Positions 735 through 15,297 are shown, counted from the first letter of the stretch. The stretch is 37,024 bases of DNA from Candidatus Heimdallarchaeota archaeon (GCA_016839945.1 JAEOTE010000005.1:1-37024), one strand, 5' to 3'. The notes: generated by a model not told the origin, from the letters alone. Translations and numbers: made by a program.

Positions 735-3700
735 ATGAAACAAAAAGCAATTTTGGGTTCAGTTTTGTTGGGTTTAACATTTATACTTCTTACTATGAGT
801 GGTTCTTTCACTCAAGCACAAATGGCTTCTTCTCAGATAAACCAAACAACAACACTTGATCCCGATATATTCATAGAAGACATGAAAGTTGTTGCAGGTA
901 TTGATGCTGCAGCACTGGTTGAAATGATTTTGATAGGAAATCCTCTTCCTGCAATTGCATCAGATCCACTTTTCAATAATGTTGTAAGTTGGTTATTTGT
1001 TGCATCAGATCAAGATAATTATGCTCCATATATGCTTAGAAGACCCTTAAAAGCTCCTGAAAACGCAACACTAGTGTTGGAGATGAAAGCAGCCTTAGGT
1101 CCTGATCTAAGCTTGGAAAGAGCCGTCCAAATAGCTATTTTATTCATTGGCGCATATGATGTTGGTCTAAGATGGGCAAGAGCTGAAATCCTACCAAATG
1201 GAAACTATCTATACTACTTTACAGGTGGTATGGAAACTACACTATTTAATACATTAATCACAGAGATTAAAGGAGATGTTACATCCGGATTTGCATCTTT
1301 ACTAGATGCTGCCACAGTGAGTGCATCACCTGTCAAAGCGGTTGTAATTGGTGAAACAACTTTTGAGGGATTTATAGTCCCAGTAAGAGGTGTTTACTTT
1401 ATTGATCCAGCTGCTATTACAGGTACAACAGATTTTACACTATCCACAAGCAATATATTTGGGGCAGCTGTTTCTCCAATGATAGGATTAAAGAAATTCT
1501 CGTCATTAAGATTCAGATTCCCATACACAATTAATCCAACATCAATAATTCCAAGACCTAATAACTTTGCTCCTCAAATATCAGGAAAAATGGATTGGGT
1601 ATTGAAATCTCCATGGTCACCTACAAGAGCTGCAGGTAACTATGAAGTTGTTTACAATATTGATCACGCTTCATTAGCTTCTACTCCTAGAGTATCAGTT
1701 AATATGGCTTATAATCAAACAATGCTTAATGAAGATGGAAGACTACAAATGGATTATTTTGTAGAAAACACTGGAACTGAGGACGCAAAAAATATTGATA
1801 TTACTTTTCCAGTAAGTGCTGATTTCCTTAATTTCATTAACAATCTACCTTTAATGCCAGTTCTGAAACCAGATATAGTAGTTGATGATACATTCTATGC
1901 TGAAATTAATGCGACAATAATATTAAATTTCTCCGGACTTTTATTTGATAGCGTAGATCCTATAATTTATACACAAACAGTATTAGTTCTTGATGGATGG
2001 TATCTAAATACATCTGATGGAACTTATGTAGATTGGGATCCATTGTTAACTGATGTTATTGTTAAAACAGATTCAGAACCATTTTCAGCTTTAGGTATTC
2101 CTGGAACAGTAGATATTGAAGCACGAGTCACACACAATGCAGGTGAAGTGGGTTTATCCAACATTCTGATAAATGAAGTATCAAACTTCTTAGCACCGAT
2201 AGATCTTTCTGACTATACAATAAACCTTCCAACTGATGTTATACCCGCTATTACAGCAATGTACGATGATTATACAAATGAAGCCTGGGCAGCAGTTGAT
2301 GCAGCAGGTCTAGCTTTGTATGATTTACTATACGATGAAATTGAAATATTCCAAATCGATTGGATGGATTTCTATTATGTTGAAGATGAATTAGGTGAAT
2401 TTGGTGACACAACCATTAGAGATCAAATATTGATAAATACAACAATTCCATACCTAGCAGCAGGTGATAACACAACAGTAAGTTGGGCAATGTATAACAT
2501 ACCCTCACTAGCTCATACTTATGGTATGATGGGTATAGGATTAGTAGATGTAGGTACTGGTTTTCCAGCAGTGCAACTAACAACAACTGAACAAAATGGT
2601 TACAACTTGATGAGATTATTGTTCGGTATATTTGATGATATGGTTCATCCATTATTCACATTCAGTCGACCATTGAGTTATTATGACCTATGGTCCAACA
2701 CATGGCTTTCTACTGGTATAAGATTCAGATATGAAGACTTACAAAACTTTGAATACTTTGGCTTCAGTAATGGTATAAATCTACAAGTAGCCGATGATGA
2801 AGCAGTTTTGAATGTTAATGTAGCTTTGGACGCTACAGGATATCAAGTAGGAGATCCAGTTGAAATTACATATACAGTCGAAAATACTGGTGATATTGCA
2901 GCTGAAAACGTAAAAGTTCATCTAGTTCATGGAAGAATTGGAAATGACTGGCAAATCGTCGATCCAGAGATATTTTGGTATGATGATGTTGGTCAAGTAC
3001 TTCCAGGAGAAATAAACAAATATGTTGGAACTGCAAACGTTTATGCTGATTCCTTCTTAGGTATTCATCCTGTGTATGCCATTGTAGAATTTGACAGTGA
3101 TTATGGGCAAACAGATTTAGCAGACGTAGAAGTTGATTTTGGATCTGGATTAATCTCGATATTTGAAGGTGCAGCTCAGACACACCAAGTAGTTCTTTCA
3201 AACATGGCTTGGGCTATCTTGAAACCAGCTACAGAAAACAGAGTACCAGCATTCCCACAACCTGTCTTACAAATCGATGTTGAAGCACAAATAATCATCC
3301 CTGATGATGCTCCTTGGGAACTAGAAATTACCATCACTATCACAAATGTTGGTGATGAAACAACCCACATAACAGCATTCCAATACTACAACGCAACTGA
3401 AATGGAATTATTAAGCAAAGAACGTACTAAAGGAATTGTAGAAGAGAGATTAATCGGAGATATGGGTATAGTTATATTCAAAGGTATAACCCTCGCACCT
3501 CAAGAATCTGTCACCATTACTATGAGATGGAAATTCCTCTTTAGTCAAGGTTGCTACATTCCAGGAATAAGAGTCGTATATGACAGCAGATTTGAGAACG
3601 AACTCGGTGGAGACGAACTCGAAGGAGATGTTGAACCAGCTAATGCTATTGTAATGGCAATGAATGGTCAATCTCAAGAAGAAGAAAATGATTGGGAAGA

Positions 3701-3863
3701 CTATGGAGAGTCTACACAAACAAGCTCTTCAGCTGGAGCTGATGTCTTTACTGGTGGAGATCACACTCGAAGAATGGGTACAACCGAAGCTGTTCTATGG
3801 TCAATCAGTGCAATATTTGTAACTGCAGTTGCTGTAACAATTAAGAAAAAAATCAAACACTAA
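735..3863 (+). CDS. Large acidic membrane-anchored surface protein (S-layer-like) with CARDB/DUF11-like Ig-type domains
   Basis: N-terminal signal peptide; three Ig-like strand motifs (DYFVENTGTEDAKNI, TYTVENTGDIAAENV, ITITNVGDETT); C-terminal hydrophobic helix plus KKKIKH tail; GGAGG RBS upstream. Confidence 0.65.
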   Translation: MKQKAILGSVLLGLTFILLTMSGSFTQAQMASSQINQTTTLDPDIFIEDMKVVAGIDAAALVEMILIGNPLPAIASDPLFNNVVSWLFVASDQDNYAPYMLRRPLKAPENATLVLEMKAALGPDLSLERAVQIAILFIGAYDVGLRWARAEILPNGNYLYYFTGGMETTLFNTLITEIKGDVTSGFASLLDAATVSASPVKAVVIGETTFEGFIVPVRGVYFIDPAAITGTTDFTLSTSNIFGAAVSPMIGLKKFSSLRFRFPYTINPTSIIPRPNNFAPQISGKMDWVLKSPWSPTRAAGNYEVVYNIDHASLASTPRVSVNMAYNQTMLNEDGRLQMDYFVENTGTEDAKNIDITFPVSADFLNFINNLPLMPVLKPDIVVDDTFYAEINATIILNFSGLLFDSVDPIIYTQTVLVLDGWYLNTSDGTYVDWDPLLTDVIVKTDSEPFSALGIPGTVDIEARVTHNAGEVGLSNILINEVSNFLAPIDLSDYTINLPTDVIPAITAMYDDYTNEAWAAVDAAGLALYDLLYDEIEIFQIDWMDFYYVEDELGEFGDTTIRDQILINTTIPYLAAGDNTTVSWAMYNIPSLAHTYGMMGIGLVDVGTGFPAVQLTTTEQNGYNLMRLLFGIFDDMVHPLFTFSRPLSYYDLWSNTWLSTGIRFRYEDLQNFEYFGFSNGINLQVADDEAVLNVNVALDATGYQVGDPVEITYTVENTGDIAAENVKVHLVHGRIGNDWQIVDPEIFWYDDVGQVLPGEINKYVGTANVYADSFLGIHPVYAIVEFDSDYGQTDLADVEVDFGSGLISIFEGAAQTHQVVLSNMAWAILKPATENRVPAFPQPVLQIDVEAQIIIPDDAPWELEITITITNVGDETTHITAFQYYNATEMELLSKERTKGIVEERLIGDMGIVIFKGITLAPQESVTITMRWKFLFSQGCYIPGIRVVYDSRFENELGGDELEGDVEPANAIVMAMNGQSQEEENDWEDYGESTQTSSSAGADVFTGGDHTRRMGTTEAVLWSISAIFVTAVAVTIKKKIKH

Positions 3864-3896: not shown

Positions 3897-3958
3897 GAAC
3901 TTACATAATAGCTTGTTTTAAATATGATTTTACCGCTAGATTTATTGAGCGAAACATA

Positions 3959-6946
3959 ATGACTAGTCAAAGCTCTTCGATACAAGAAAATTTTGTCTTC
4001 TCAAGCCTTTCGCTTTACAATTTCAAGATGCACAGAAATACTCAATTGAACCTCTCTGAGGTGCCAATTACAATTATTTCAGGTGCTAATGGAAGTGGGA
4101 AGACTCAACTGTTGGAAGCATTAATACTTGCAATAGGGAACACTCCAAATCGTGTATCATTGAGCACATTCAAAGAATTAATTGGACCTTTTGATAATTA
4201 TTGTAACATTAAGCTTTTTCTCAATAATCCAAAATTTTCTGAACAAAGAGTAATTCATAGCACAGATCCAGATATTGCATCTATAGTGAATAATGATTCC
4301 TTTTATTCCGAGCTAGAAATAAAACAAGATGGAGGAATCAAGAGGTATATAGGAACAGGAAGTAAGAAAAGGAAAGAAATCACACGTAAACAAATCAAGA
4401 GAACTATGAAGATCATTGGTATATTTGAAGATACAATGCTTAACTTTACTGAAGAAGGATATTTGGGAACCTTCGCAGATGGCTCTCCTCATAAAAAACT
4501 CGATAATCTGTTAGTAGCTACAGGTATGAAAGAGATATTCACAAGCTATATAGATTCAAGAAAAAGAGTAGAAGACAAAGAAAGAGAATTCTCCCCACTA
4601 GCCTTACAATTGGAAAAAGAACAAAATAAATTAGATAAACTTAAGGAAAATTATGAAAGATTACTGAAGAAAAAAGAATTAATTCAAAGATTTGATGAGG
4701 TTGAAAAAGAACTTTTCTGGTTTAATGCAATTGAAAGTCAAAAGAATTTAGAGGAAGCACAACAAGAACTTGAGATGAAAAAAAAGAAACTAGAAGAGCT
4801 TAAAAAAACAGAATCGGAAACAAAAAAAGAAGTAAAAACAACTAAAGAATCACTAGATATAGAAAACGAACAGATAATTGATTCAAAATCAAAAATCAGA
4901 GAGATGTCAGATAATCTCAATAGATTCAAAGGACAAAAAGATGAAAAAAATAAACAAATCCAAGAGATTAGTTCTAACTTATTAACACTAGAAAATCAGA
5001 TTAAAGAATACAAATTGGTTAACTCTAGCGAAGGATTTGAGAAAAAAGTTGTTTTACAAGATCAAATAAATAGGATAAAGAAAGACCAAAAAAACATAGA
5101 AAAAAGAATGGATGAAATTTCTAAAGAGATAAGAAAATTATCACAAGAGGAAGATTCAATAAAAGAAAGAATAAATGAAAGATCTCAGCTTTATGGAGAA
5201 TTAAATGATTATGAAAGAAGATTAATCAAAGATGTGATATGTTTCAAAGAAAAAATAAGTAAATCGAAATATAAAGAAGAAATAGTTGGTCCCATTCATG
5301 AAATAATTAACATCTTACCAGAACATCATGATTATGAAAAAGTTATAAAAACAGTTATTGGAAAACATCTCTACAGTTTTATCGCAACTTCCCAAAAAGC
5401 TTATGAAGATGCGAAAAAGATTTATGATGAATTATTCGTTTTATATAAACCTAATTTTATTGTAGGAAGAGTGATTTTTCAAAAAGGATCAAAATCTAAA
5501 CATCTAACTAGTTATGAGTTTGAGAACAAACCTGAAGGATTAATTGATCATATTGTAAATCTCATTGAAGGACCAGATGCTGCAAAGATATACCTGAGGA
5601 AGTTTATTAGAATCATGTTAGCAAAACCTTCTCTTTCTGCAGTTTTATTAACCGATTATGCTAAGAAACTAAGAACAAATATTTTGACAAGTGATGGTAA
5701 AAGTTTCTTTCTATCTCAAGAAGCGTTCACTCGACCACCTAGATCTCAAAATGTGAAGCTAGGTGTCGAACTCTCGAAATATCAATCTATCGAGAGAATA
5801 AGAGAACAACTCAACCAACTTTATTCTAAGGTAGAAGATCTGAACATAGAGAAAGGGGAGTGCATTAGAAAGATTTCAGATTTCGATAGGGAAAGAAGAG
5901 ATTTGGAAGAAAAACTTAAACCTTGGGAGATGAATAAGGGTGAGATCGAAAGAGAATTTCTGAGATTTGAAGATACAAGAAGTAGTCTAGAACAACAACA
6001 AAAATCGGAATTAAGCAATCTCGAAAGTTTAAGTGAACAAATAGATGATTTATCACGAGAACTTATTAGTTTTGAAAAGGAATTTGAATCAGTTCAAGAG
6101 ACTCAGAAGGAGAAAAGAGAAAAATACGATAATCTCCAACATTCATTACAAGAAATAATATCTAAAAGAGAGAAGAAAAAACAATACCTAAACCTTCTAT
6201 CATTAGATATTAGTGAATTAGAAGGGAGATATAAAGAATTAATAGAAATTGCAAAAGAAAAAGGTTCCAAGTCTGAATCAATCCGTGAGAATAAAGAAGA
6301 AATATTAGTCGAGTACAATAAAATAAAAGGTCAACTTGAATTTTTGGAGATTACACCTGAATTAAGTGAAGAAACAATAGATGAACAGGAAAAAAGAGTA
6401 GAACTATTGAATCAAGAAGTTAGCGAAAATGAGATTCACTTAAAGCATTTGAAAGATGATTTAGAGAAAAGAATACAAGAATGGGAAGGTGGATTGAATA
6501 ATATAGTAAACCATCTAAACAGGATGTTAAACCTACTTCTAAAAGATATCTTTAAGAATATATCAGTTAAAATAACAAATTATAATGACGAGAGATCTGC
6601 AGGACTAGTAATAGAAGCAGAAACAAAAGGTGATAGCAGAATATATAGACAACTCTCTGGAGGGGAAAAGACTCTTATTGCTCAAGCAATTATACTCGCA
6701 TTACATATGATAAATCAATCTCCAATTCATGCGATAGATGAGTTTACTCAAAAACTAGATAAAAAGAATAAAGCTTTAGCTTTTTCTATGGCGCTAGCTA
6801 CTTATAATCTAGCAAAGGAAAATAGGATGATTACTCCTCAATTTGTTTTGATAACTCCGATGTTGGACGATGTTGAATTATCTGATGAATTCACACACAA
6901 AGTTCTAATTGAAAGCAAGGTAGAAAAAGAGAAGGTGAAGACATGA
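3959..6946 (+). CDS. SMC-family ATPase, SMC5/6-like
   Basis: Walker A GANGSGKT; two long coiled coils around a hinge (IVGPIHEII...VIGKHLYSFIA); signature LSGGEK; Walker B/D-loop SPIHAIDEFTQKLD; terminal QFVLITP. No Rad50 CxxC hook. Confidence 0.88.
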   Translation: MTSQSSSIQENFVFSSLSLYNFKMHRNTQLNLSEVPITIISGANGSGKTQLLEALILAIGNTPNRVSLSTFKELIGPFDNYCNIKLFLNNPKFSEQRVIHSTDPDIASIVNNDSFYSELEIKQDGGIKRYIGTGSKKRKEITRKQIKRTMKIIGIFEDTMLNFTEEGYLGTFADGSPHKKLDNLLVATGMKEIFTSYIDSRKRVEDKEREFSPLALQLEKEQNKLDKLKENYERLLKKKELIQRFDEVEKELFWFNAIESQKNLEEAQQELEMKKKKLEELKKTESETKKEVKTTKESLDIENEQIIDSKSKIREMSDNLNRFKGQKDEKNKQIQEISSNLLTLENQIKEYKLVNSSEGFEKKVVLQDQINRIKKDQKNIEKRMDEISKEIRKLSQEEDSIKERINERSQLYGELNDYERRLIKDVICFKEKISKSKYKEEIVGPIHEIINILPEHHDYEKVIKTVIGKHLYSFIATSQKAYEDAKKIYDELFVLYKPNFIVGRVIFQKGSKSKHLTSYEFENKPEGLIDHIVNLIEGPDAAKIYLRKFIRIMLAKPSLSAVLLTDYAKKLRTNILTSDGKSFFLSQEAFTRPPRSQNVKLGVELSKYQSIERIREQLNQLYSKVEDLNIEKGECIRKISDFDRERRDLEEKLKPWEMNKGEIEREFLRFEDTRSSLEQQQKSELSNLESLSEQIDDLSRELISFEKEFESVQETQKEKREKYDNLQHSLQEIISKREKKKQYLNLLSLDISELEGRYKELIEIAKEKGSKSESIRENKEEILVEYNKIKGQLEFLEITPELSEETIDEQEKRVELLNQEVSENEIHLKHLKDDLEKRIQEWEGGLNNIVNHLNRMLNLLLKDIFKNISVKITNYNDERSAGLVIEAETKGDSRIYRQLSGGEKTLIAQAIILALHMINQSPIHAIDEFTQKLDKKNKALAFSMALATYNLAKENRMITPQFVLITPMLDDVELSDEFTHKVLIESKVEKEKVKT

Positions 6947-7713
6947 CAGATCACGAAATATCAGAGGAAGAACATTCAATAGCTACTGAGATGTTAGATG
7001 AAACTATTCATTGGTCAGAAGTAGTTTTTCATACTCTTTTTGAATTGCAAAAGAAGTACTCTCGTTTCATTAGACGTAAGGAAGTTGTTGGAGTTAGAGA
7101 ATCTGAGGGAGATAGAGAAAGAGTGTCAGATGCATATCTCTATTTGAAAAATCAGAAAGAAAACTTAGTAGATTCTGCTTTGTATAAAGACTTCATTGAT
7201 ATGAGTGAATTAAGAGAATTAAGTTATCTAGAAAAATTATTACATCCTAAAAGAAGATTGGATAAATTTGCACTAACTGTAGCTAAATTATGTCAAGCTA
7301 TTGTTTTTACTAAAGGTGAAATTAAAATTGATTCAAGAGATTTAATATCTCTTCTTAATAATGAAGCTAAGGATATAGAATTTAACGAAGATATAGAACA
7401 GTTTATACAACATTATCAAGATTATTTTGTACCATTAAAAAATGTGTTATTGACTAAAAGTGAGATTATGAATATTGAAGATAGAATTTACAATAAGCTT
7501 ATTGATAAGAAAATAAAGAAAAATGAACTTAATGTGATACTGACAAGTGTTGAAGCTGAGATTCTGTCTAAAATGATTAGTGAAAAGAAAATCTTTGTAA
7601 CAATGAGTGATGATGAACTCTTTTTCTCTTCTGATGAAAATAATGATTCTGAAACAATATCTAGTTCTGTGTTAATATCACCTAAAAAAAATCACAATAA
7701 TGGTGATGAATGA
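6943..7713 (+). CDS. Hypothetical protein, candidate kleisin-like subunit
   Basis: ATGA overlap with the SMC stop; helical, with a C-terminal helix-strand-strand pattern (EILSKMISEKKIFVTMSDDELFF) compatible with a winged helix. The kleisin identity rests mainly on context. Confidence 0.4.
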   Translation: MTDHEISEEEHSIATEMLDETIHWSEVVFHTLFELQKKYSRFIRRKEVVGVRESEGDRERVSDAYLYLKNQKENLVDSALYKDFIDMSELRELSYLEKLLHPKRRLDKFALTVAKLCQAIVFTKGEIKIDSRDLISLLNNEAKDIEFNEDIEQFIQHYQDYFVPLKNVLLTKSEIMNIEDRIYNKLIDKKIKKNELNVILTSVEAEILSKMISEKKIFVTMSDDELFFSSDENNDSETISSSVLISPKKNHNNGDE

Positions 7714-8312
7714 TGGAAGAAGCCCATCAGGAAGAATTAGAGGAAGAAGAAGATCAAACAGAGCCGTTACTGCTTCCTGCTGTTGTTACTGATGAAGAAA
7801 AAGGTGAGTTATTCCGAGAATTAACTACTATTTTTTCTAGAAAATGGATAAAAGATAAAACTACAGTTTTTGGGAGTTCAGAGATGGATTTATTACTCGC
7901 AACAAAATTCGATATAAGCACTCTACGAAGCACTTTGGAGGAGTATAAGCGTTTTGTTGAGATAATTGGTTTAGAACTTATAGAATATGATTTTGAGAAT
8001 GATAGATGGTATTGTTTGAAAACCGACTACTATGCACCTTCTGAATTGGAAAAAAACGATCTAATTATTTTAGGTACAATTATAAGTTTAGTTGAAGCAA
8101 ATACTGGTCCTGTTTTAACCGAAAAAATAAAAGAGAAATTAGTTTTAACTGGAAAGATAAAAGAATATATTCTTGAAAGCAGTCTAAGAAAACTTGTAAA
8201 GTATGGATATCTAAACAGAAAACAGAGTGAATGGTCATATAATTACAGAACACTGATTGAATTTGGGGAAGAAGAAAGAAAAACAATTTCTGAGGAGTTT
8301 GGAAAAATTTGA
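7710..8312 (+). CDS. Tandem winged-helix KITE-like protein (Nse1/Nse3-MAGE/ScpB/MukE class)
   Basis: ATGA overlap; acidic N-tail; IIGLELIEYD..RWYCL ends the first WH; ILGTIISLV...SLRKLVKYGYL..WSYNYRTLIEF resembles the second WH of Nse1/MAGE. Confidence 0.62.
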   Translation: MMEEAHQEELEEEEDQTEPLLLPAVVTDEEKGELFRELTTIFSRKWIKDKTTVFGSSEMDLLLATKFDISTLRSTLEEYKRFVEIIGLELIEYDFENDRWYCLKTDYYAPSELEKNDLIILGTIISLVEANTGPVLTEKIKEKLVLTGKIKEYILESSLRKLVKYGYLNRKQSEWSYNYRTLIEFGEEERKTISEEFGKI

Positions 8313-8761
8313 GTGAGCTTGAAATTATAGAATATTATATTCGCTGTGCATTTTGCAATAGTACAAAAATGTTAAAAGAAGCAGCTTTGGAAGGTTGGGA
8401 AATATGCAGTGGGTGTCAACTTGTTTTCTGTTTAGAGTGCAAAAAAAACGTAGAAGAAGAGATTTGTCCAGGATCTGTTTATACCGCAAAGCATAATGTT
8501 ATCTTTGGACTTCTTCCATTAGAACAGATTATTGATTTAGCTGATGAGATACAAAAAAAACCTAAAGAAGGAAAATATATCTCAAAAATATTTTTTGAAG
8601 ATGAAAAGAAGAAAATTGAATTATTAAAGAAGAAAAAAGACAAAACAAAAATCAATGAATATGAAATCATTAGATTTCGAGAAGAGCAGTGGAGAAAATT
8701 TGGTACTGTTCTAGTTAAAAGAAAAGACGGAAAATTCCTTACTTGGGGACAAATAGAATAG
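8309..8761 (+). CDS. RING-like zinc-finger protein
   Basis: TTGA overlap; CAFC...CSGC-QLVF-CLEC...CPGS..H gives 7 Cys + His, enough for two Zn sites; basic C-terminal half. Confidence 0.65.
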   Translation: MSELEIIEYYIRCAFCNSTKMLKEAALEGWEICSGCQLVFCLECKKNVEEEICPGSVYTAKHNVIFGLLPLEQIIDLADEIQKKPKEGKYISKIFFEDEKKKIELLKKKKDKTKINEYEIIRFREEQWRKFGTVLVKRKDGKFLTWGQIE

Positions 8762-9009
8762 ATCCACAGAAAAAACAATTACTGAATATTAGTATTTTAA
8801 GCACTGTTTTTAATAAAAAACCAATATTTTTCATCTACTCTATTTGAAGAATAAACTTATTATTCTAAAATTAACACTTTTTAGCTTATTTGTTTAAGCT
8901 TTTCTTTGATTGAATCAATCTCTTTTTCAGTTCTGCAAAAAGTTTATAGTCTATCTATTTGAATATTATTTGATATTTATAAATATCGTCTAAGAAGGAT
9001 GAAGAAAAA

Positions 9010-10694: not shown

Positions 10695-13586
10695 ATGGCA
10701 AAAACAAAGAAAAGTCAGAATAAAAAAAATAATGCTAAAGGGCAAAAAAAAGAAAGAAAATCTATTATAGACTTTCTATATGTGAAGTTACTACGTGATC
10801 GTTCTACAAACTTCATAATTGTTGTAACTGTTTTTGTTTTTATCGTTTGGATGGTAATTCCATTATTTTTAGTTTTGTCAGCAGGAGTATATTTCGATGG
10901 AAGTTGGTCAGGACAACCCATTGTAAATGTATTTGCAGGTAATTCAAGTAAAAAATTCTTTAATTTTGCAGGAGAACCAAATACACAACTCGTGACAAAA
11001 ACTACAGAGGAACTTGGAGGACCTTCTGATTCAATTAAGGTTGTTGATGATGTCGCTTATGTTGCGGAGCGGGAGGGTGGTATAGAGGTTCTGAATGTAA
11101 GTGATACATCTGAAATAATAGAAATAACAACATATGATGATAATATAAGTTCGTTTCAGGATATAGAAATAAAGGATAATTATTTATTTAGCGCAGCTGG
11201 AAAAAGCGGTCTAGTTGTATTCAACATTTCTAATGTAAATGATGGCATCTATCCAATCGCATTTTTACCAGGACTAGCTAATACTACTAATTTTCTAACT
11301 TTGTCAAACAACTTGGTTATTTTAGAAACTAATAGAGATGGATTTTCCATTATAGATGTATCTAATGTTGTTCAACCTGTAATTCAGGCTAATGTGTCAG
11401 TTGATTATGAACTAAAAAACATTGTAGTAAAAGATACCATTGCTTATGCAGTAGGTTATTCTCTTGGAATAATTGTTTTTAACATAAGCGATCCTACTGT
11501 TCCTCAAATTATTCGAACTTATAGTGATTTCCCAGGTCTTGGTACATTAAGAGTTCAAGATATCAGCGTTGTTAACGATATCGCTTATGTTGCTTTAGGT
11601 TCAAAAATGGCTCTATTTAATGTTAGCAATCCTGCTGATATTTCCTTAATTTCAGAGATGGACAATATAGAAGCAAATGGTGTGGAAGTTTCTGGTGATT
11701 ATGCTTATGTTACCGTATTTGATACTGTTAATCTGATATATGGAGTGGTTGTTGTTGATATTAGCAACACTACAAATTTAATTGAACTTGGAAGTTTCAC
11801 AACTTCACTTTATTTTAATCAAGATGTCTTTATAGATGAGTCAAGGAATCTTATCTTCTTAGCTCAAGGAAAAGGAGGAACTCAGATTGTTGATATAACT
11901 GATAAAAACAACCTTGTGCTCTTAAGTAGTTTTGTTGACACGCAAACAATTACTGTTTATATTTTTAGTGGAAAAAATAGGGGTATAGTATTAAATACAT
12001 TGATATTGGGAGTCTGTACAACCATCGGTTCAATACTTTTAGGTACAGCATTAGCGTTTATTTTGGCAAGATATGAATTTCCAGGAAAAAAACTAATAAG
12101 CTTATTAGCTTTAGCTCCTTTAATTATACCACCATTCATTTCAGGAATGGGTTTTAACTTACTTATAGGACCTAGTGGTTTACTTAATAACTTATTTCTA
12201 ATACCTGTTTTTCAAATAAAGGTAATTTTTACGGGATTTCTTGCTATTTGTTATGTACAAACTTCTCATTTCTATGCATTAGTTTACCTAAATGCTTATT
12301 CTTCATTTCTTAATATAGATCCAAGCATGGAAGAATCAGCTGAAAATCTTGGTGCAGGTAGTTTTCGTTTGTTTTACAGTGTTACTCTCCCCTTAGCACT
12401 GCCTGGAATAGGTGCAGGTTCTATACTAGTACTAATTCTTTCAATGGAAGATGTTGGGACACCAATAATCTTTGCAAGACTGGGTGATACTCTTGCAACT
12501 AATTATTTAACATATTATGTGTTTGATAACTTTCATAGACAGGGAGCTGCAGTGATTACGCCTGAAGTGTGTATCCTAGGGGCCCTACTGTTAATAATAG
12601 CACTAATTGGCTTCTTTATGATTCGAAAGTATGTTTCTCTTAGAAAATATGCAATGGTAAGTAAAGGGAGAGCAGGTGAATACAGACTGACAAAGGCTAG
12701 ATGGAAATTGTTGTTCATCTATCCTTTTCTAATTATACTTTTTGCATTATCATTATTAATCCATGTTGGAGTGTTTTTGATGTCTATTCTGAAAACTCTT
12801 GGCCCTACGAAAGCCTCTGATGTTAAATTCACGTTTGATAATTATCGTTTAATATTTGATAGAACATCATTAGAAGGACAACTATACAATATCCCTCCAT
12901 ATATGTTGAATACGATTGTTTATAGTGTTGTAGCAACTATGTTGATTATTATACTTGGTTCTTTAGCTGCATATGTTATAAGCAGAAAAGAATTCAAAGG
13001 AAAAAATCTATTAGATGCTTTAGTTACACTTCCTATTGCTATCCCAGGTATTGTTCTAGCTCTTGGATACTATAGAACTTTTGATTGGAGTAGCATAGCT
13101 GCGAAAAATCCCACGTGGATAAACAATATGATGGCAAATGTAACGTCTACTCTTCGGTTAGATCCGTTTATAGGAGTAGCAGTAACTCTACTAATATTGA
13201 GTTATACGGTTAGAAAATTTCCATTCACTGTGAGGTCAGCATTTGCAGGATTACAACAAACTGATGTGGTTCTTGAGGAAGCTTCATTTAATCTAGGAGC
13301 AAGTAGAATGCAAACCTTTTCAAAAGTGACTCTTCCTTTGATTTCACTTAATGTTTTTGCAGGATCTTTGGTATCCTTCCTCTATTGTCTTTCAGAGGTA
13401 TCTACTACAATATTTTTGATATTCCAATCAGAAGCAGGAACATTAACATGGTATATGGCTTGGATGCCTCTTAAATTTCAGATTTTCTGTGCTTTAGGTG
13501 TATTACTAATGTTACTTCAAGTCTTTAGCCTATTTGTAACAAATGTAATATTAGGTTCAAGGGCAGAAGCAATAACAGGAATCTAA
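10695..13586 (+). CDS. Fe3+/thiamine-type ABC permease (FbpB/ThiP-like, two fused TM domains) with inserted LVIVD beta-propeller
   Basis: Two EAA loops (MEESAENLGA, LEEASFNLGA), PLIIPPF and LPIAIPGIV motifs; seven LVIVD-type repeats after the first TM helix. Confidence 0.88.
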   Translation: MAKTKKSQNKKNNAKGQKKERKSIIDFLYVKLLRDRSTNFIIVVTVFVFIVWMVIPLFLVLSAGVYFDGSWSGQPIVNVFAGNSSKKFFNFAGEPNTQLVTKTTEELGGPSDSIKVVDDVAYVAEREGGIEVLNVSDTSEIIEITTYDDNISSFQDIEIKDNYLFSAAGKSGLVVFNISNVNDGIYPIAFLPGLANTTNFLTLSNNLVILETNRDGFSIIDVSNVVQPVIQANVSVDYELKNIVVKDTIAYAVGYSLGIIVFNISDPTVPQIIRTYSDFPGLGTLRVQDISVVNDIAYVALGSKMALFNVSNPADISLISEMDNIEANGVEVSGDYAYVTVFDTVNLIYGVVVVDISNTTNLIELGSFTTSLYFNQDVFIDESRNLIFLAQGKGGTQIVDITDKNNLVLLSSFVDTQTITVYIFSGKNRGIVLNTLILGVCTTIGSILLGTALAFILARYEFPGKKLISLLALAPLIIPPFISGMGFNLLIGPSGLLNNLFLIPVFQIKVIFTGFLAICYVQTSHFYALVYLNAYSSFLNIDPSMEESAENLGAGSFRLFYSVTLPLALPGIGAGSILVLILSMEDVGTPIIFARLGDTLATNYLTYYVFDNFHRQGAAVITPEVCILGALLLIIALIGFFMIRKYVSLRKYAMVSKGRAGEYRLTKARWKLLFIYPFLIILFALSLLIHVGVFLMSILKTLGPTKASDVKFTFDNYRLIFDRTSLEGQLYNIPPYMLNTIVYSVVATMLIIILGSLAAYVISRKEFKGKNLLDALVTLPIAIPGIVLALGYYRTFDWSSIAAKNPTWINNMMANVTSTLRLDPFIGVAVTLLILSYTVRKFPFTVRSAFAGLQQTDVVLEEASFNLGASRMQTFSKVTLPLISLNVFAGSLVSFLYCLSEVSTTIFLIFQSEAGTLTWYMAWMPLKFQIFCALGVLLMLLQVFSLFVTNVILGSRAEAITGI

Positions 13587-13617: not shown

Positions 13618-15297
13618 TCATTGAAAGTGGATTTTTTTCTGTTCGTACCCTATTTTCCCTCCATTCTCATCTTGAAAAATAAACTCAATCAATGTCTTTC
13701 CAAGAAAATTAGTGGCTGGTATTTCAATCATTTTTGTTTCGTGAGAATTGTCCTCTAACCTTAATGGGTATAAATGACTTGTAAAAATACCACCTCTTAC
13801 GAATGATATTCTCAGTGTTCCTACAATTTCTTCATTATTTCTATTATAGAGATGAACAGGGATGCTAAATGGTTTATATATCGGTGCTGTCTCAGGGGCT
13901 ATTGCTTTGATTTCAATGTTTTTAGTTTGTTGTTCCAAATCTAGACTTGGCATAGAAAAACTCCAAGATATATTCTCAAACAACGTTCCTTTTGTTTTTA
14001 ACATCTCTTCAGAATGGGTTTCAGAAATCTTCCCTACTATTTTACTTTTCATATAAACTGCATCTTTGTGAGATTTTACAGATATTTGATACTTATCCAT
14101 GTCATCATAGCTATATCTAATTTCTCGAATTGCTGTATCTCCAAGTGTATTACCTCGTTGCAGTATAATACATGAAGGATCTCGATGAAGATATCTAACA
14201 TCATGAATTAATGTTGGATCAATAGGAAACCATATGCCATTAATGAAGAATTCTGCTTGGGAATGATACAACCACCCTTCTATATCACTATGAATAATAC
14301 TTGTTGTCATTCTTGCTGGTATGTTAGCAGCTCTGCACAAACTTACAAAAAGGGATGCAAATTCTGTGCAATCCCCATAACGATTTTCTATCGCGAATAT
14401 AGGTCCATAATCCCCATCAAGTGGAATATAATCAATGTTATTCTTGATGAATTTGAGAAAAGCAAAAACTTTCCCTAAAGGAGAATATTCTTGAAACTTT
14501 CTTGCAACCTTCCTTATCGACTGGTGAGTTGATTCAATGAATGGTTCGGGTTGTGTATACTTTCTAAAAGTTTCTAAGTAAAGGTCTTCTAAAGATTCTT
14601 CATGACCTTTAATTCTTGTAATATCATATGCGACTAATCTTGTTATAATATATGCTCTATAAGCTAAAGTGATTTTTTCTTTTGGGTTAATTTGATGAAA
14701 ATAGAATCTTAACCATCGATTTCCTTCATCATCATATATTAATTTAGAGGGTTGATAGTTGCAAACAACATTAGTGACATGTTGTATTGGAGTAATATTT
14801 GGAGGGATCATAACGTCCATTACAAAATTATTCAAGGGAATATTGTTTGGATTCTCAAAGTGAACTCCATAAGAAAGAACCCAACGATATAATAGTTGTT
14901 TATTAGTTTTAATATTTAGTTTTTCTCGTAATCTAAAATCTCCGTCAATTTGTAAAAGGTAAGTACCAGAATAAAGATCAGGAACAACTGGAAAGGTGTA
15001 TATTCTTCGAAGACCAGTTTCATCTAAACGAACTTGATTAGAATCAATTATTGTCCCTATTGGAGAAACTAAAAGTATGTGTAAATTAACGTCTTTTTTG
15101 GTACGAACAAAAGGAATTGACTGTTCTTTACCAGCAACTAAAATACTATCCCCTACCTCTATGAGATTTTGTAAGGACACTTGTTTAGCCTTATTGCCTT
15201 TAACATGAAACACTTCTATCATGTTTGAATCACAAGGATGTTGTAATATTCTACAAATATTTAGAGGAATATGTTGTTCTAATTCCTCTGTAATCAA
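13618..15297 (-). CDS. Transglutaminase-like domain protein
   Basis: Cys-His-Asp triad motifs GDCTEFASLFVSLCRAANIPAR, YHSQAE and WFPIDPT; no signal peptide; start uncertain (TTG). Confidence 0.85.
   Translation of the reverse strand: MITEELEQHIPLNICRILQHPCDSNMIEVFHVKGNKAKQVSLQNLIEVGDSILVAGKEQSIPFVRTKKDVNLHILLVSPIGTIIDSNQVRLDETGLRRIYTFPVVPDLYSGTYLLQIDGDFRLREKLNIKTNKQLLYRWVLSYGVHFENPNNIPLNNFVMDVMIPPNITPIQHVTNVVCNYQPSKLIYDDEGNRWLRFYFHQINPKEKITLAYRAYIITRLVAYDITRIKGHEESLEDLYLETFRKYTQPEPFIESTHQSIRKVARKFQEYSPLGKVFAFLKFIKNNIDYIPLDGDYGPIFAIENRYGDCTEFASLFVSLCRAANIPARMTTSIIHSDIEGWLYHSQAEFFINGIWFPIDPTLIHDVRYLHRDPSCIILQRGNTLGDTAIREIRYSYDDMDKYQISVKSHKDAVYMKSKIVGKISETHSEEMLKTKGTLFENISWSFSMPSLDLEQQTKNIEIKAIAPETAPIYKPFSIPVHLYNRNNEEIVGTLRISFVRGGIFTSHLYPLRLEDNSHETKMIEIPATNFLGKTLIEFIFQDENGGKIGYEQKKIHFQ

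What the first reader, a model, noticed from the sequence alone, without database searches (positions are those of the whole stretch)
3959..8761. Four-gene operon resembling a minimal prokaryotic Smc5/6-Nse complex (SMC + kleisin-like + KITE + RING)
Seen: four genes chained by 4-nt start/stop overlaps (ATGA 6943, ATGA 7710, TTGA 8309). The SMC hinge (VGPI...IGKHLYSFI), D-loop (SP...DEFTQKLD) and tail (QFVLITP) look like Smc5 (DEINQGMD, QYFLITP) and Smc6 (DEFDVFMD, QFIFITP) rather than condensin Smc or Rad50. Known: eukaryotic Smc5/6 uses the kleisin Nse4, KITEs Nse1/Nse3 and RING-type ligase domains (Nse1 RING, Nse2 SP-RING); archaeal SMC5/6-related ATPases are known, but their partner subunits are poorly defined. 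Inference: this operon encodes a complete ancestral-type complex including a ubiquitin-ligase-like subunit, acting in chromosome maintenance or restriction of extrachromosomal DNA.
Basis: partly seen in the sequence, partly recalled or inferred. Interest (0 to 1): 0.9.

Follow-up and report, generated by a model that had tools for sequence, protein, structure and literature searches.

The report
Archaeal Smc5/6-like operon with RING-like subunit
A Heimdall-group Asgard archaeon encodes, as its only SMC machine, an Smc5/6-type chromosome complex (SMC, kleisin candidate, KITE) plus a dedicated RING-like zinc protein that in related lineages sits beside a private ubiquitin-like tagging kit, so the eukaryotic tie between Smc5/6 and ubiquitin/SUMO ligases may predate eukaryotes.

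Summary
Four co-directional ORFs (3959-6946, 6943-7713, 7710-8312, 8309-8761) are chained by ATGA/ATGA/TTGA overlaps.

- **Gene 1:** a true SMC. Its family profile hits Smc6 first in the PDB, whereas a control profile of canonical Asgard SMC hits archaeal Smc and Smc1-4.
- **Gene 3:** folds as a KITE. Nse3, ScpB and Nse1 are tied as best matches.
- **Gene 4:** has eight conserved zinc ligands. Its model matches almost only RING/U-box/ZZ domains, with modest Z scores (5.4 or less).
- **Gene 2:** a kleisin by position only.

The block is conserved in 27 of 30 genomes of the family. Closed genomes of that family lack canonical Smc, ScpA and ScpB.

In other Asgard families the same four genes are tied to JAB, E1, and Ubl-like and E2-like genes. 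That kit is absent here.

The three-gene Smc5/6-related operon is already described in a preprint (van Hooff et al.). The RING-like fourth subunit is not; that preprint calls the Nse1 RING a eukaryotic innovation.

This scan has already noted the SMC-Ubl link on other Asgard DNA. New in this window are the minimal form without the kit and its status as the sole SMC complex.

Ligase activity and subunit contacts remain untested.

The parts
3919..3926 (+). TATA-box-like TTTAAATA, 33 nt upstream of the SMC start codon; candidate archaeal promoter of the operon
   Evidence: Read directly from the sequence. It lies after the T-rich end of the upstream gene. Promoter function is inferred, not tested.
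3959..6946 (+). SMC ATPase, 995 aa, Smc5/6-type. Features: Walker A GANGSGKT, signature LSGGE, Walker B/D-loop IDEFTQKLD, short coiled-coil arms, and a hinge that Pfam SMC_hinge does not recognise.
   Evidence: The family profile (A5) hits Smc6 first in the PDB; the control is. There is one copy per genome.
6943..7713 (+). Kleisin candidate, 256 aa. Conserved ESE.DR..VSDAY motif near the N-terminus and a conserved C-terminal L..E...LS.M block.
   Evidence: It always lies between the SMC and KITE genes, with start/stop overlaps. Family alignment is A4. No homology to ScpA or Nse4 was detected, so the identity is positional only.
7710..8312 (+). KITE subunit, 200 aa: acidic disordered N-terminus (residues 1-24) followed by two winged-helix domains.
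   Evidence: AlphaFold2 model with pLDDT 83.5. Foldseek hits ScpB, Nse1/Nse3, MukE, JetB and MAGE. VIA-align gives Nse3 Z 10.4 over 165 aa, ScpB Z 9.9 over 141 aa, Nse1 Z 9.3 over 156 aa. Weak Pfam MAGE hit, E 0.014.
8309..8761 (+). RING-like zinc protein, 150 aa, TTG start.
   Evidence: Family alignments A1 and A3. The model and fold searches are. It always directly follows the KITE gene.
8336..8518 (+). Zinc-binding domain (residues 10-70). Ligands are C14, C17 (H/D/N in other lineages), C33, C36, C41, C44, C53 and H62 (replaced by C57 in variants).
   Evidence: Ligand conservation and the compensating C57/H62 alternation are seen. pLDDT is about 81. The best structural match is the RNF4 RING: Z 5.4, rmsd 2.4 A over 57 of 64 residues.
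8660..8758 (+). C-terminal motif (residues 118-150, R.REEQWRKFGTVLVKRKDGKF.TWGQ), the most conserved part of the protein. It is preceded by a Lys-rich, low-confidence linker and is the proposed anchor to the SMC complex.
   Evidence: Invariant columns are listed. The second Zn-only paralogue in other families lacks this motif (one search matches cover only positions about 9-70). The anchoring role is inferred.
8803..8832 (+). T-runs downstream of the last gene; candidate transcription end.
   Evidence: Read directly from the sequence; inferred function.

Best explanation
The four genes form one operon for an archaeal Smc5/6-type complex.

Composition: an SMC homodimer (one gene), a kleisin candidate that would bridge the two ATPase heads, a KITE homodimer on the kleisin, and a fourth, dedicated RING-like zinc subunit. 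Like other SMC complexes, it should clamp and move DNA under ATP control.

Role in this lineage: no canonical Smc, ScpA or ScpB is found in this family, even in closed genomes. The complex therefore most likely does the general chromosome-maintenance work here rather than a side job.

The RING-like subunit: it is read as an E3-like adaptor held on the complex by its highly conserved C-terminal motif. In other Asgard families the same four genes are tied to a private JAB-E1-Ubl-like-E2-like kit, so the ancestral system probably tagged proteins at the SMC complex. This lineage lacks that kit. Its RING-like subunit either works with the cell's general ubiquitin system (four UQ_con E2 genes lie elsewhere in the genome) or has only a structural role.

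Shown: the genes and their overlaps, SMC type, KITE fold, zinc-ligand conservation, RING-like model, synteny, co-distribution, and absence of the kit and of canonical Smc-ScpAB.

Inferred: kleisin identity, subunit contacts, stoichiometry, any ligase activity, and the direction of evolution.
For: - **SMC type.** Profile A5 against the PDB gives Smc6 at 162 and 149 bits, ahead of Smc4 109, archaeal Smc 105 and Smc5 100. The control profile of the second, canonical SMC of family f7 gives archaeal Smc 446 bits, then Smc2/4/3/1, and no Smc5/6 at E<=1e-20. In a tree the family is a 100/100 clade, separated from canonical Asgard SMC by long branches.
- **Literature.** The preprint's Supplementary Table 3 lists Heimdallarchaeia UBA460 with 1 SMC5/6-related SMC, 1 Nse1/3-related kite, no Nse4-related kleisin and no canonical parts.
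- **KITE.**
- **RING-like.** Eight ligands are conserved in 19 close and 29 distant homologues, with H62 and C57 alternating. Nearly all of the 50 best rows in an unbiased scan of 48,161 chains are RING, U-box, ZZ or SP-RING domains; searches agree.
- **Synteny.** The gene always follows KITE. JAB-ThiF follows it in f7 (10/10), f8 and f29. In f12 JAB-ThiF lies upstream of the SMC gene with a Ubl-like gene, an E2-like gene (UQ_con E 0.004), a second Zn paralogue and a transglutaminase-like gene.
- **Co-distribution.** The family tallies for the Zn protein and this SMC type are nearly identical across 83 class genomes.
- **Sole SMC complex.**
- **Kit absent here.**. General E2 genes are present.
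Against: - The kleisin candidate shows no detectable similarity to Nse4, ScpA or any Pfam or PDB entry.
- The KITE fold does not separate Nse1/3 from ScpB. Z scores are tied within 1, and Foldseek's best E-value is an archaeal ScpB.
- RING-like matches are weak in absolute terms (Z 5.4 or less, Foldseek E 0.2 or more). They rest on a model of pLDDT about 81 built from a shallow alignment. Sequence-level hits of paralogues include non-cross-brace zinc domains such as double zinc ribbon and IBR.
- The hydrophobic residue between the first two ligands (F16 here; by my recollection the position of the E2-contacting Ile in c-Cbl-type RINGs) is Gly or Ala in the lineages that keep the Ubl kit.
- This organism lacks the cognate kit, so ligase function here is doubtful.
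- I built no phylogeny with eukaryotic Smc5/6 sequences.
Confidence: 0.62

Rival explanations
1. The complex is the same, but the fourth protein is not a ligase. Its zinc domain and Lys-rich linker would serve as a structural or DNA/chromatin-binding subunit, as much of the Nse1 RING's role in complex stability is thought to be. The neighbouring Ubl genes in other lineages would then modify or regulate it rather than use it as an E3.
For: The private Ubl kit is absent in this family while the protein is kept under strong constraint. The most conserved part is the C-terminal motif, not the zinc domain. The linker is Lys-rich. The position that would hold the E2-contacting hydrophobic residue is not conserved. 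Weak sequence hits include zinc ribbons, FYVE and IBR.
Against: Structural neighbours are overwhelmingly E3-type RING/U-box domains. Linkage to E1, E2-like, Ubl-like and JAB genes survives gene reshuffling in several families. The genome keeps four genuine E2 genes that it could use.
Confidence: 0.25
2. This is a fast-evolving canonical Smc-ScpA-ScpB (condensin-like) operon, followed by an unrelated small zinc-ribbon gene. The Smc5/6 resemblance would be an artefact of divergence.
For: It is the only SMC in the genome. Gene order and sizes mimic Smc-ScpA-ScpB. The best Foldseek E-value for the KITE is Pyrococcus ScpB at 1.8e-5.
Against: The profile ranks Smc6 about 50 bits above every other SMC, whereas the canonical Asgard SMC control ranks archaeal Smc first and does not reach Smc5/6. 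Genomes of family f7 hold both types side by side, the canonical one with a Pfam-recognisable ScpA. There are no PF02616 or PF04079 matches. hhalign against Asgard ScpA gives probability 0.2%. A published phylogeny places the UBA460 SMC and kite in the SMC5/6 and Nse1/3 clades. The zinc gene is fixed to the KITE gene in 8 families.
Confidence: 0.07
3. This is a Wadjet/MksBEF-like defence module against plasmids or viruses that happens to be conserved.
For: SMC + kleisin + KITE is also the JetABC layout. JetB appears among the KITE fold hits (8dk1_E). Eukaryotic Smc5/6 restricts viral DNA (abstract of PMC9458440).
Against: No nuclease partner lies next to the block; the neighbours are a CARDB surface protein and an ABC transporter. 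The block is single-copy at a fixed syntenic place in 27 of 30 family genomes, with groups following taxonomy. It is the only SMC in closed genomes. JetC and MukB do not rank among the best 60 PDB matches of the SMC profile.
Confidence: 0.04

Closest known systems
Archaeal SMC5/6-related operons (SMC + Nse4-related kleisin + Nse1/3-related kite) of TACK and Asgard archaea; van Hooff, Raas, Tromer & Eme, bioRxiv 10.1101/2024.01.07.573240; SMC part first in Yoshinaga & Inagaki, PMC8665677
   Same: The SMC type, the KITE and the gene order are the same. Their Supplementary Table 3 lists Heimdallarchaeia UBA460 with one SMC5/6-related SMC and one Nse1/3-related kite and no canonical parts. This matches what I find.
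   Different: They found no Nse4-related kleisin in that lineage; here a positional candidate sits between the two genes. They describe no zinc or RING protein in the archaeal operons and call the Nse1 RING 'absent in archaeal kites' and a 'eukaryotic innovation'. Here a RING-like gene is fixed directly after the kite gene.
Eukaryotic Smc5/6 holocomplex (Smc5-Smc6, kleisin Nse4, KITEs Nse1/Nse3, Nse1 variant RING, Nse2 SP-RING SUMO ligase)
   Same: Both have an Smc6-like ATPase, a tandem-winged-helix KITE and a RING-type zinc module belonging to the complex. In sister lineages there is also a physical tie to a ubiquitin-like conjugation pathway.
   Different: This complex has one SMC gene and one KITE gene, so it is presumably built from homodimers. 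The RING-like module is a separate 150-aa protein with its own C-terminal motif. It is neither fused to a KITE (as in Nse1) nor attached to an arm-binding helical domain (as in Nse2). No Nse5/6 is present. The ligand pattern is C4-C3-H with an unusual last pair.
Prokaryotic Smc-ScpAB
   Same: Both have an SMC homodimer, a kleisin-sized and a KITE-sized partner in one operon, a KITE fold close to ScpB (Z 9.9), and a probable housekeeping role.
   Different: The SMC profile prefers Smc6. The hinge is not seen by Pfam SMC_hinge and the arms are shorter (995 aa against about 1200 aa). No ScpA or ScpB family match is found. There is an extra RING-like subunit.
Archaeal eukaryote-like E1/E2/small-RING ubiquitylation operons (Caldiarchaeum subterraneum, Asgard; PMC5654768, PMC3082918)
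   Same: The modules in related Asgard lineages share a small stand-alone RING-like protein, an E1 (ThiF), an E2-like protein, a Ubl-like protein and a JAB peptidase.
   Different: In these lineages the module is wired to an SMC operon, and its E2-like and Ubl-like proteins are barely recognisable (UQ_con E 0.004; YukD E 0.08). In this window only the RING-like gene remains.

Membership tests
SMC superfamily ATPase | Walker A, ABC signature (LSGGE), Walker B/D-loop, two long coiled-coil stretches and a central hinge | tested here: met
   GANGSGKT, LSGGE and IDEFTQKLD are in the translation. Pfam AAA_23 and SMC_N and TIGR02168 match partially. These positions are invariant in the family.
Smc5/6 subfamily | Closer to Smc5/Smc6 than to Smc1-4 or prokaryotic Smc | tested here: met
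   The profile against the PDB gives Smc6 162 and 149 bits versus Smc4 109, archaeal Smc 105 and Smc5 100. The canonical Asgard SMC control shows the reverse. This is a ranking of profile scores, not a phylogeny.
Smc5/6 subfamily | Placement in the SMC5/6-related clade of a tree that includes eukaryotic sequences | not testable with these tools
   No eukaryotic SMC sequences could be obtained. The preprint's table lists the UBA460 SMC as SMC5_SMC6_related.
Smc5/6 subfamily | Heterodimer of two paralogous SMCs (kappa and nu) | tested here: not met
   There is one gene of this type per genome, as expected for a pre-duplication form.
Kleisin (Nse4 / ScpA) | N-terminal helical domain that binds the SMC neck and C-terminal winged helix that binds the SMC cap | tested here: inconclusive
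   No Pfam family for P0002 at E 0.1 or less, and only scattered unrelated single-member hits across the 15 family members. No significant PDB match by sequence or profile (best E 0.63). hhalign against Asgard ScpA gives probability 0.2%.
Kleisin (Nse4 / ScpA) | Gene placed between the SMC and KITE genes, size about 250 aa, co-inherited with both | tested here: met
KITE (ScpB, MukE, Nse1/Nse3, JetB) | Tandem winged-helix fold | tested here: met
   Model pLDDT 83.5. Full-length alignments to Nse3 (Z 10.4), ScpB (Z 9.9) and Nse1 (Z 9.3). The Foldseek list is dominated by KITEs.
Nse1/Nse3-type KITE versus ScpB-type | Closer to Nse1/Nse3/MAGE than to ScpB | tested here: inconclusive
   Z scores are tied within 1. 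Pfam MAGE is weakly hit in 5 of 22 members and MksE in 2 of 22, and ScpB is not among the 22 families listed. PF04079 is absent from the genome.
RING-type E3 domain | Eight Cys/His zinc ligands conserved | tested here: met
   C14, C/H/D17, C33, C36, C41, C44, C53 and H62 or C57.
RING-type E3 domain | Cross-brace fold | tested here: inconclusive
   The model's neighbours are RING, U-box and ZZ domains, but Z is 5.4 or less and coordinates could not be inspected. This is a model, not a structure.
RING-type E3 domain | Canonical C3HC4/C3H2C3 spacing | tested here: not met
   The pattern is C-x2-C-x15-C-x2-C-x4-C-x2-C-x8-C-x8-H. The 4-residue gap before the fifth ligand recalls C4HC3 (PHD/variant RING) types, from my own recollection. 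The last pair is atypical.
RING-type E3 domain | Binds an E2 and stimulates Ub/Ubl transfer | not testable with these tools
   Only genomic association with E1, E2-like, Ubl-like and JAB genes in other lineages is available.
Nse1 | KITE and RING in one polypeptide | tested here: not met
   They are separate overlapping genes. No KITE-sized fusion appears among 44 profile hits in 1.84 billion representatives.
Smc-ScpAB | ScpA (PF02616) and ScpB (PF04079) partners | tested here: not met
   Neither is found in the own genome, the closed genome or 82 of 83 class genomes. The method does detect ScpA next to the canonical SMC of f7.
Wadjet / JetABCD | [quoted passage not shown] | tested here: not met
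   The flanking genes are a CARDB protein and ABC-transporter parts. Nothing else is conserved inside the block.

The most novel reading that the evidence does not exclude
The adjacent, overlapping KITE and RING-like genes are the unfused forerunner of Nse1 (KITE + RING). The SMC-anchored RING-like subunit, together with the private Ubl kit of sister lineages, shows that Smc5/6 was already a ligase-bearing, protein-tagging machine in the archaeal ancestors of eukaryotes. The Heimdallarchaeaceae form would be a natural 'minimal' version that runs the whole chromosome with this complex alone.
Probability: 0.3. Interest if true: 0.85.

Novelty: new variant of a known kind. Interest (0 to 1): 0.68.

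Why it matters
Why eukaryotic Smc5/6, alone among SMC complexes, carries built-in ubiquitin and SUMO ligases is an open question. The current evolutionary account treats the Nse1 RING as a eukaryotic invention.

A RING-like subunit fixed to the KITE gene of the archaeal Smc5/6-type operon, and tied in several Asgard lineages to an E1/E2-like/Ubl-like/JAB kit, makes an earlier origin directly testable with four to eight small recombinant proteins.

This window adds two points:
- A lineage closely related to eukaryotes in which the Smc5/6-type complex is the only SMC complex. This bears on what the ancestral job of Smc5/6 was.
- A natural form in which the RING-like subunit is kept without its kit. 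This separates its structural role from its enzymatic role.

Tried and rejected
- **Complex prediction** (kleisin candidate + 2 KITE + RING-like protein as partner): 'no answer', score 0.28 against a mark of 0.32, controls not run. This counts neither for nor against binding.
- **Kleisin identity.** None of these gave a usable hit: Pfam and NCBIfam, PDB by sequence and by profile, ESM Atlas features for P0002 and a close homologue, a profile search of 5.8 billion proteins (only unnamed Asgard proteins without Pfam domains), and hhalign against Asgard ScpA.
- **KITE by sequence against the PDB:** nothing significant.
- **RING-like protein by sequence:** only chance-level hits, TFIIH p44 at E 1.6 and Rubicon homology domain at E 0.054.
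- **Fused KITE-RING proteins:** none among the 44 profile hits.
- **SMC tree:** the family is monophyletic, but the deep order of the lineages is unresolved. Loss of the Ubl kit in this order is therefore inferred only from taxonomy, not from the tree.
- **Single-sequence PDB search of the SMC:** not decisive, Smc1 at 1e-9 versus Smc5 at 7e-8. Only the family profile separated the types.
- **Defence-island reading:** rejected for lack of a nuclease partner and because of the fixed synteny.

Full report
**1. The observation**

The window holds four co-directional ORFs on the + strand (translations):
- 3959-6946 (995 aa)
- 6943-7713 (256 aa)
- 7710-8312 (200 aa)
- 8309-8761 (150 aa, TTG start)

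The junctions read ATGA, ATGA and TTGA, exactly as reported. A TATA-like TTTAAATA lies 33 nt before the first ATG, after the T-rich end of the upstream gene. T-runs follow the last gene. The unit therefore looks like one transcript with translational coupling.

**2. Whose genome**

Named homologues of the small proteins come from Candidatus Heimdallarchaeaceae or Heimdallarchaeota MAGs. The window is contig C39 of a 3.0-Mb, 88%-complete assembly.

**3. The SMC**

It has Walker A, LSGGE and Walker B/D-loop motifs and matches generic SMC models, but falls far below the cut-offs of the canonical archaeal or bacterial Smc equivalogs. A single-sequence search of the PDB did not separate SMC types.

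A profile of 14 family members did:

| PDB target | Score (bits) |
|---|---|
| Smc6, chain 9lwi_A | 162 |
| Smc6, chain 7ylm_B | 149 |
| Smc4 | 109 |
| Archaeal Smc | 105 |
| Smc5 | 100 |
| Smc2 | 83 |

As a control I built a profile of the second, roughly 1200-aa SMC found in a sister family (f7). It hits archaeal Smc at 446 bits, then Smc2/4/3/1, and no Smc5/6 chain at E<=1e-20. That control protein has a clear Pfam SMC_hinge and a Pfam-recognisable ScpA next to it. The window's SMC has no SMC_hinge hit.

In a maximum-likelihood tree the window's family is a 100/100 clade, far from the canonical Asgard SMC. I could not add eukaryotic sequences, so clade membership rests on the profile ranking and on the literature.

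**4. The KITE**

The 200-aa protein was modelled with 22 homologues at pLDDT 83.5. It has a disordered acidic N-terminus and two winged helices. Foldseek returns ScpB, Nse1/Nse3, MukE, JetB and MAGE.

VIA-align gives full-length alignments:

| Target | Z | Aligned residues |
|---|---|---|
| Nse3 | 10.4 | 165 |
| ScpB | 9.9 | 141 |
| Nse1 | 9.3 | 156 |

It is a KITE. Which KITE class it belongs to is not resolved by structure. Weak Pfam MAGE hits (5 of 22 members) and no listed ScpB hit lean towards Nse1/3.

**5. The kleisin candidate**

The 256-aa protein is conserved (A4) and always lies between the SMC and KITE genes. Its identity is positional.

The preprint below also failed to find an Nse4-related kleisin in this lineage, so this ORF is the obvious candidate.

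**6. The fourth protein**

Close homologues (19) conserve C14, C17, C33, C36, C41, C44, C53 and H62. They conserve even more strongly a C-terminal motif, R.REEQWRKFGTVLVKRKDGKF.TWGQ.

A profile search of 1.84 billion representatives found 44 relatives. In these:
- The second ligand varies among C, H, D and N.
- H62 is replaced, in exactly the sequences that lack it, by a Cys four residues after C53. This is the pattern expected of a real eight-ligand site.

The model has pLDDT about 81 for residues 10-70 and is poor elsewhere. An exhaustive scan of 48,161 chains matches almost only RING, U-box, ZZ and SP-RING domains. Foldseek, a second-look alignment and the ESM Atlas agree. The best match is the RNF4 RING: Z 5.4, rmsd 2.4 A over 57 of 64 residues.

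Absolute scores are modest, as is usual for 60-residue domains, and this is a model. I therefore call the protein RING-like, not a RING.

**7. Conservation and context**

The four-gene block is intact in seven independent Heimdallarchaeaceae loci, while the genes downstream are inverted or interrupted.

Among 400 Asgard genomes the zinc protein occurs in 69, by anonymous family label:
- Present: f1 27/30 (the window's family), f2 1/1, f3 3/3, f6 2/2, f7 11/12, f8 1/1, f12 19/19, f29 1/1.
- Essentially absent: f4, f5 and the large f20.

The SMC type has nearly identical family tallies across the 83 genomes of the class. In 30 loci the zinc gene directly follows the KITE gene wherever the DNA is present.

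**8. The link to ubiquitin-like tagging**

In distant members the block continues with a Prok-JAB peptidase and a ThiF-type E1. My own HMM scan shows the following:
- JAB-E1 lies directly after the zinc gene in f7 (10/10), f8 and f29.
- In f12, JAB-E1 lies a few kb upstream of the SMC gene.

Next to JAB-E1 in these families are:
- a conserved ~105-aa protein (weak YukD/ubiquitin-like hit, E 0.08);
- a ~255-aa protein (weak UQ_con hit over the catalytic region, E 0.004).

Nearby lie:
- a second zinc-only paralogue that lacks the C-terminal motif;
- a transglutaminase-like protein.

The RING-like subunit is thus the piece that stays glued to the SMC genes while the rest of the kit moves. Earlier notes of this scan report the same SMC-Ubl linkage on other Asgard genomes. 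I reached it independently, and I treat those notes as agreement, not as evidence.

**9. What is special in this window**

- **The kit is absent.** No orthologue of the JAB, Ubl-like or E2-like genes is found in this genome. The E2-like and JAB queries also found no orthologue in four further f1 genomes (two of them closed) or in an f2 genome; only weak JAB paralogues appeared. The genome does carry four genuine UQ_con E2 genes, some next to ThiF and JAB genes, so a general ubiquitin system exists.
- **This is the only SMC complex.** No canonical Smc, ScpA or ScpB is found in the own genome or in the closed 3.3-Mb genome CP084167.1. ScpA is missing from 82 of 83 class genomes. Family f7, by contrast, keeps a canonical SMC-ScpA pair as well.

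Other notes in this scan describe the complex as a 'second' SMC complex. Here it is the sole one, so a general chromosome-maintenance role is the economical reading. A defence reading is unlikely: the locus is fixed, and no nuclease is present.

**10. Literature**

van Hooff et al. (bioRxiv 10.1101/2024.01.07.573240) already describe SMC5/6-related SMC + Nse4-related kleisin + Nse1/3-related kite operons in TACK and Asgard archaea. Their table lists Heimdallarchaeia UBA460 with one SMC5/6-related SMC, one Nse1/3-related kite, no kleisin and no canonical parts.

They state that the Nse1 RING is absent in archaeal kites and is a eukaryotic innovation. Their supplements mention no zinc or RING protein in the archaeal operons. 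Five full-text searches found no paper describing an archaeal SMC-associated RING-like subunit or Ubl kit.

The three-gene core is therefore known. The fourth subunit and its Ubl link appear to be unpublished in the library I could search.

**11. Mechanism, with status**

Shown: gene structure, SMC type, KITE fold, zinc ligands, RING-like model, synteny and distribution.

Inferred:
- An SMC homodimer closed by the kleisin candidate and a KITE dimer.
- The RING-like subunit docked through its invariant C-terminal motif, which the free paralogue lacks.
- An ancestral role as E3-like adaptor that brings the E2-like~Ubl-like conjugate to the DNA-bound complex.
- In this family, either use of the general E2s or a purely structural role.

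The one complex prediction I could run gave no verdict.

**12. Verdict**

This is a real and well-conserved operon. The core is already in a preprint. It is best classed as a new variant of a known kind, of good interest because it makes the origin of the Smc5/6 ligase link testable.

Noticed in passing
window 13618-15297 (-): A 559-aa transglutaminase-like protein whose sequence motifs suggest an intact Cys-His-Asp triad (GDCTEFA, YHSQ, IDPT). It is 31% identical (E 3e-35 over 244 aa) to the transglutaminase-like gene that follows the second zinc paralogue inside the Ubl module of family f12. A Transglut_core gene of about 534 aa lies within a few kb of the SMC block in all Heimdallarchaeaceae loci examined. 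It may be a surviving part of the tagging module.
   Followed up: partly
loci L059 18605-18982, L061 16380-16766, L063 3895-4281, L070 16141-16536: Families f7 and f12 carry a second, roughly 125-130-aa paralogue of the zinc domain. It lacks the conserved C-terminal motif and always lies next to a transglutaminase-like gene, 6-10 kb from the first copy.
   Followed up: partly
window 10695-13586 (+): A 963-aa ABC permease with two BPD_transp_1 membrane domains and LVIVD repeats inserted near the N-terminus. It is conserved near the operon in relatives but in varying orientation.
   Followed up: no
window 735-3863 (+): A 1042-aa CARDB/DUF11-repeat protein directly upstream of the SMC gene. It is conserved at that place in all family loci but is separated from the operon by a T-rich stretch and a promoter-like box. 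It is probably a surface protein and not part of the operon.
   Followed up: no
G016:C1:1354659-1355279 (closed relative's genome): A 223-aa open frame matches the first 208 positions of the SMC profile (E 1.8e-86), about 2 kb from the full-length SMC gene. It looks like a duplicated N-terminal head fragment. Similar fragments occur in f3 (G042:C75, G044:C126).
   Followed up: no
G017, G023, G031, G036, G038 SMC matches: The six-frame matches to the SMC profile in several relatives are reported with one in-frame TGA, although the gene called in the closed genome is uninterrupted. The stop probably lies just upstream of the true start; this was not checked.
   Followed up: no
G000 contigs C69 (24268-29998) and C129 (362-1810): Elsewhere the genome holds eukaryote-like ubiquitin gene clusters: UQ_con E2 with a JAB-like and a ThiF gene on C69, and ThiF next to a 470-aa UQ_con protein on C129. 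These are possible partners for the RING-like subunit.
   Followed up: partly
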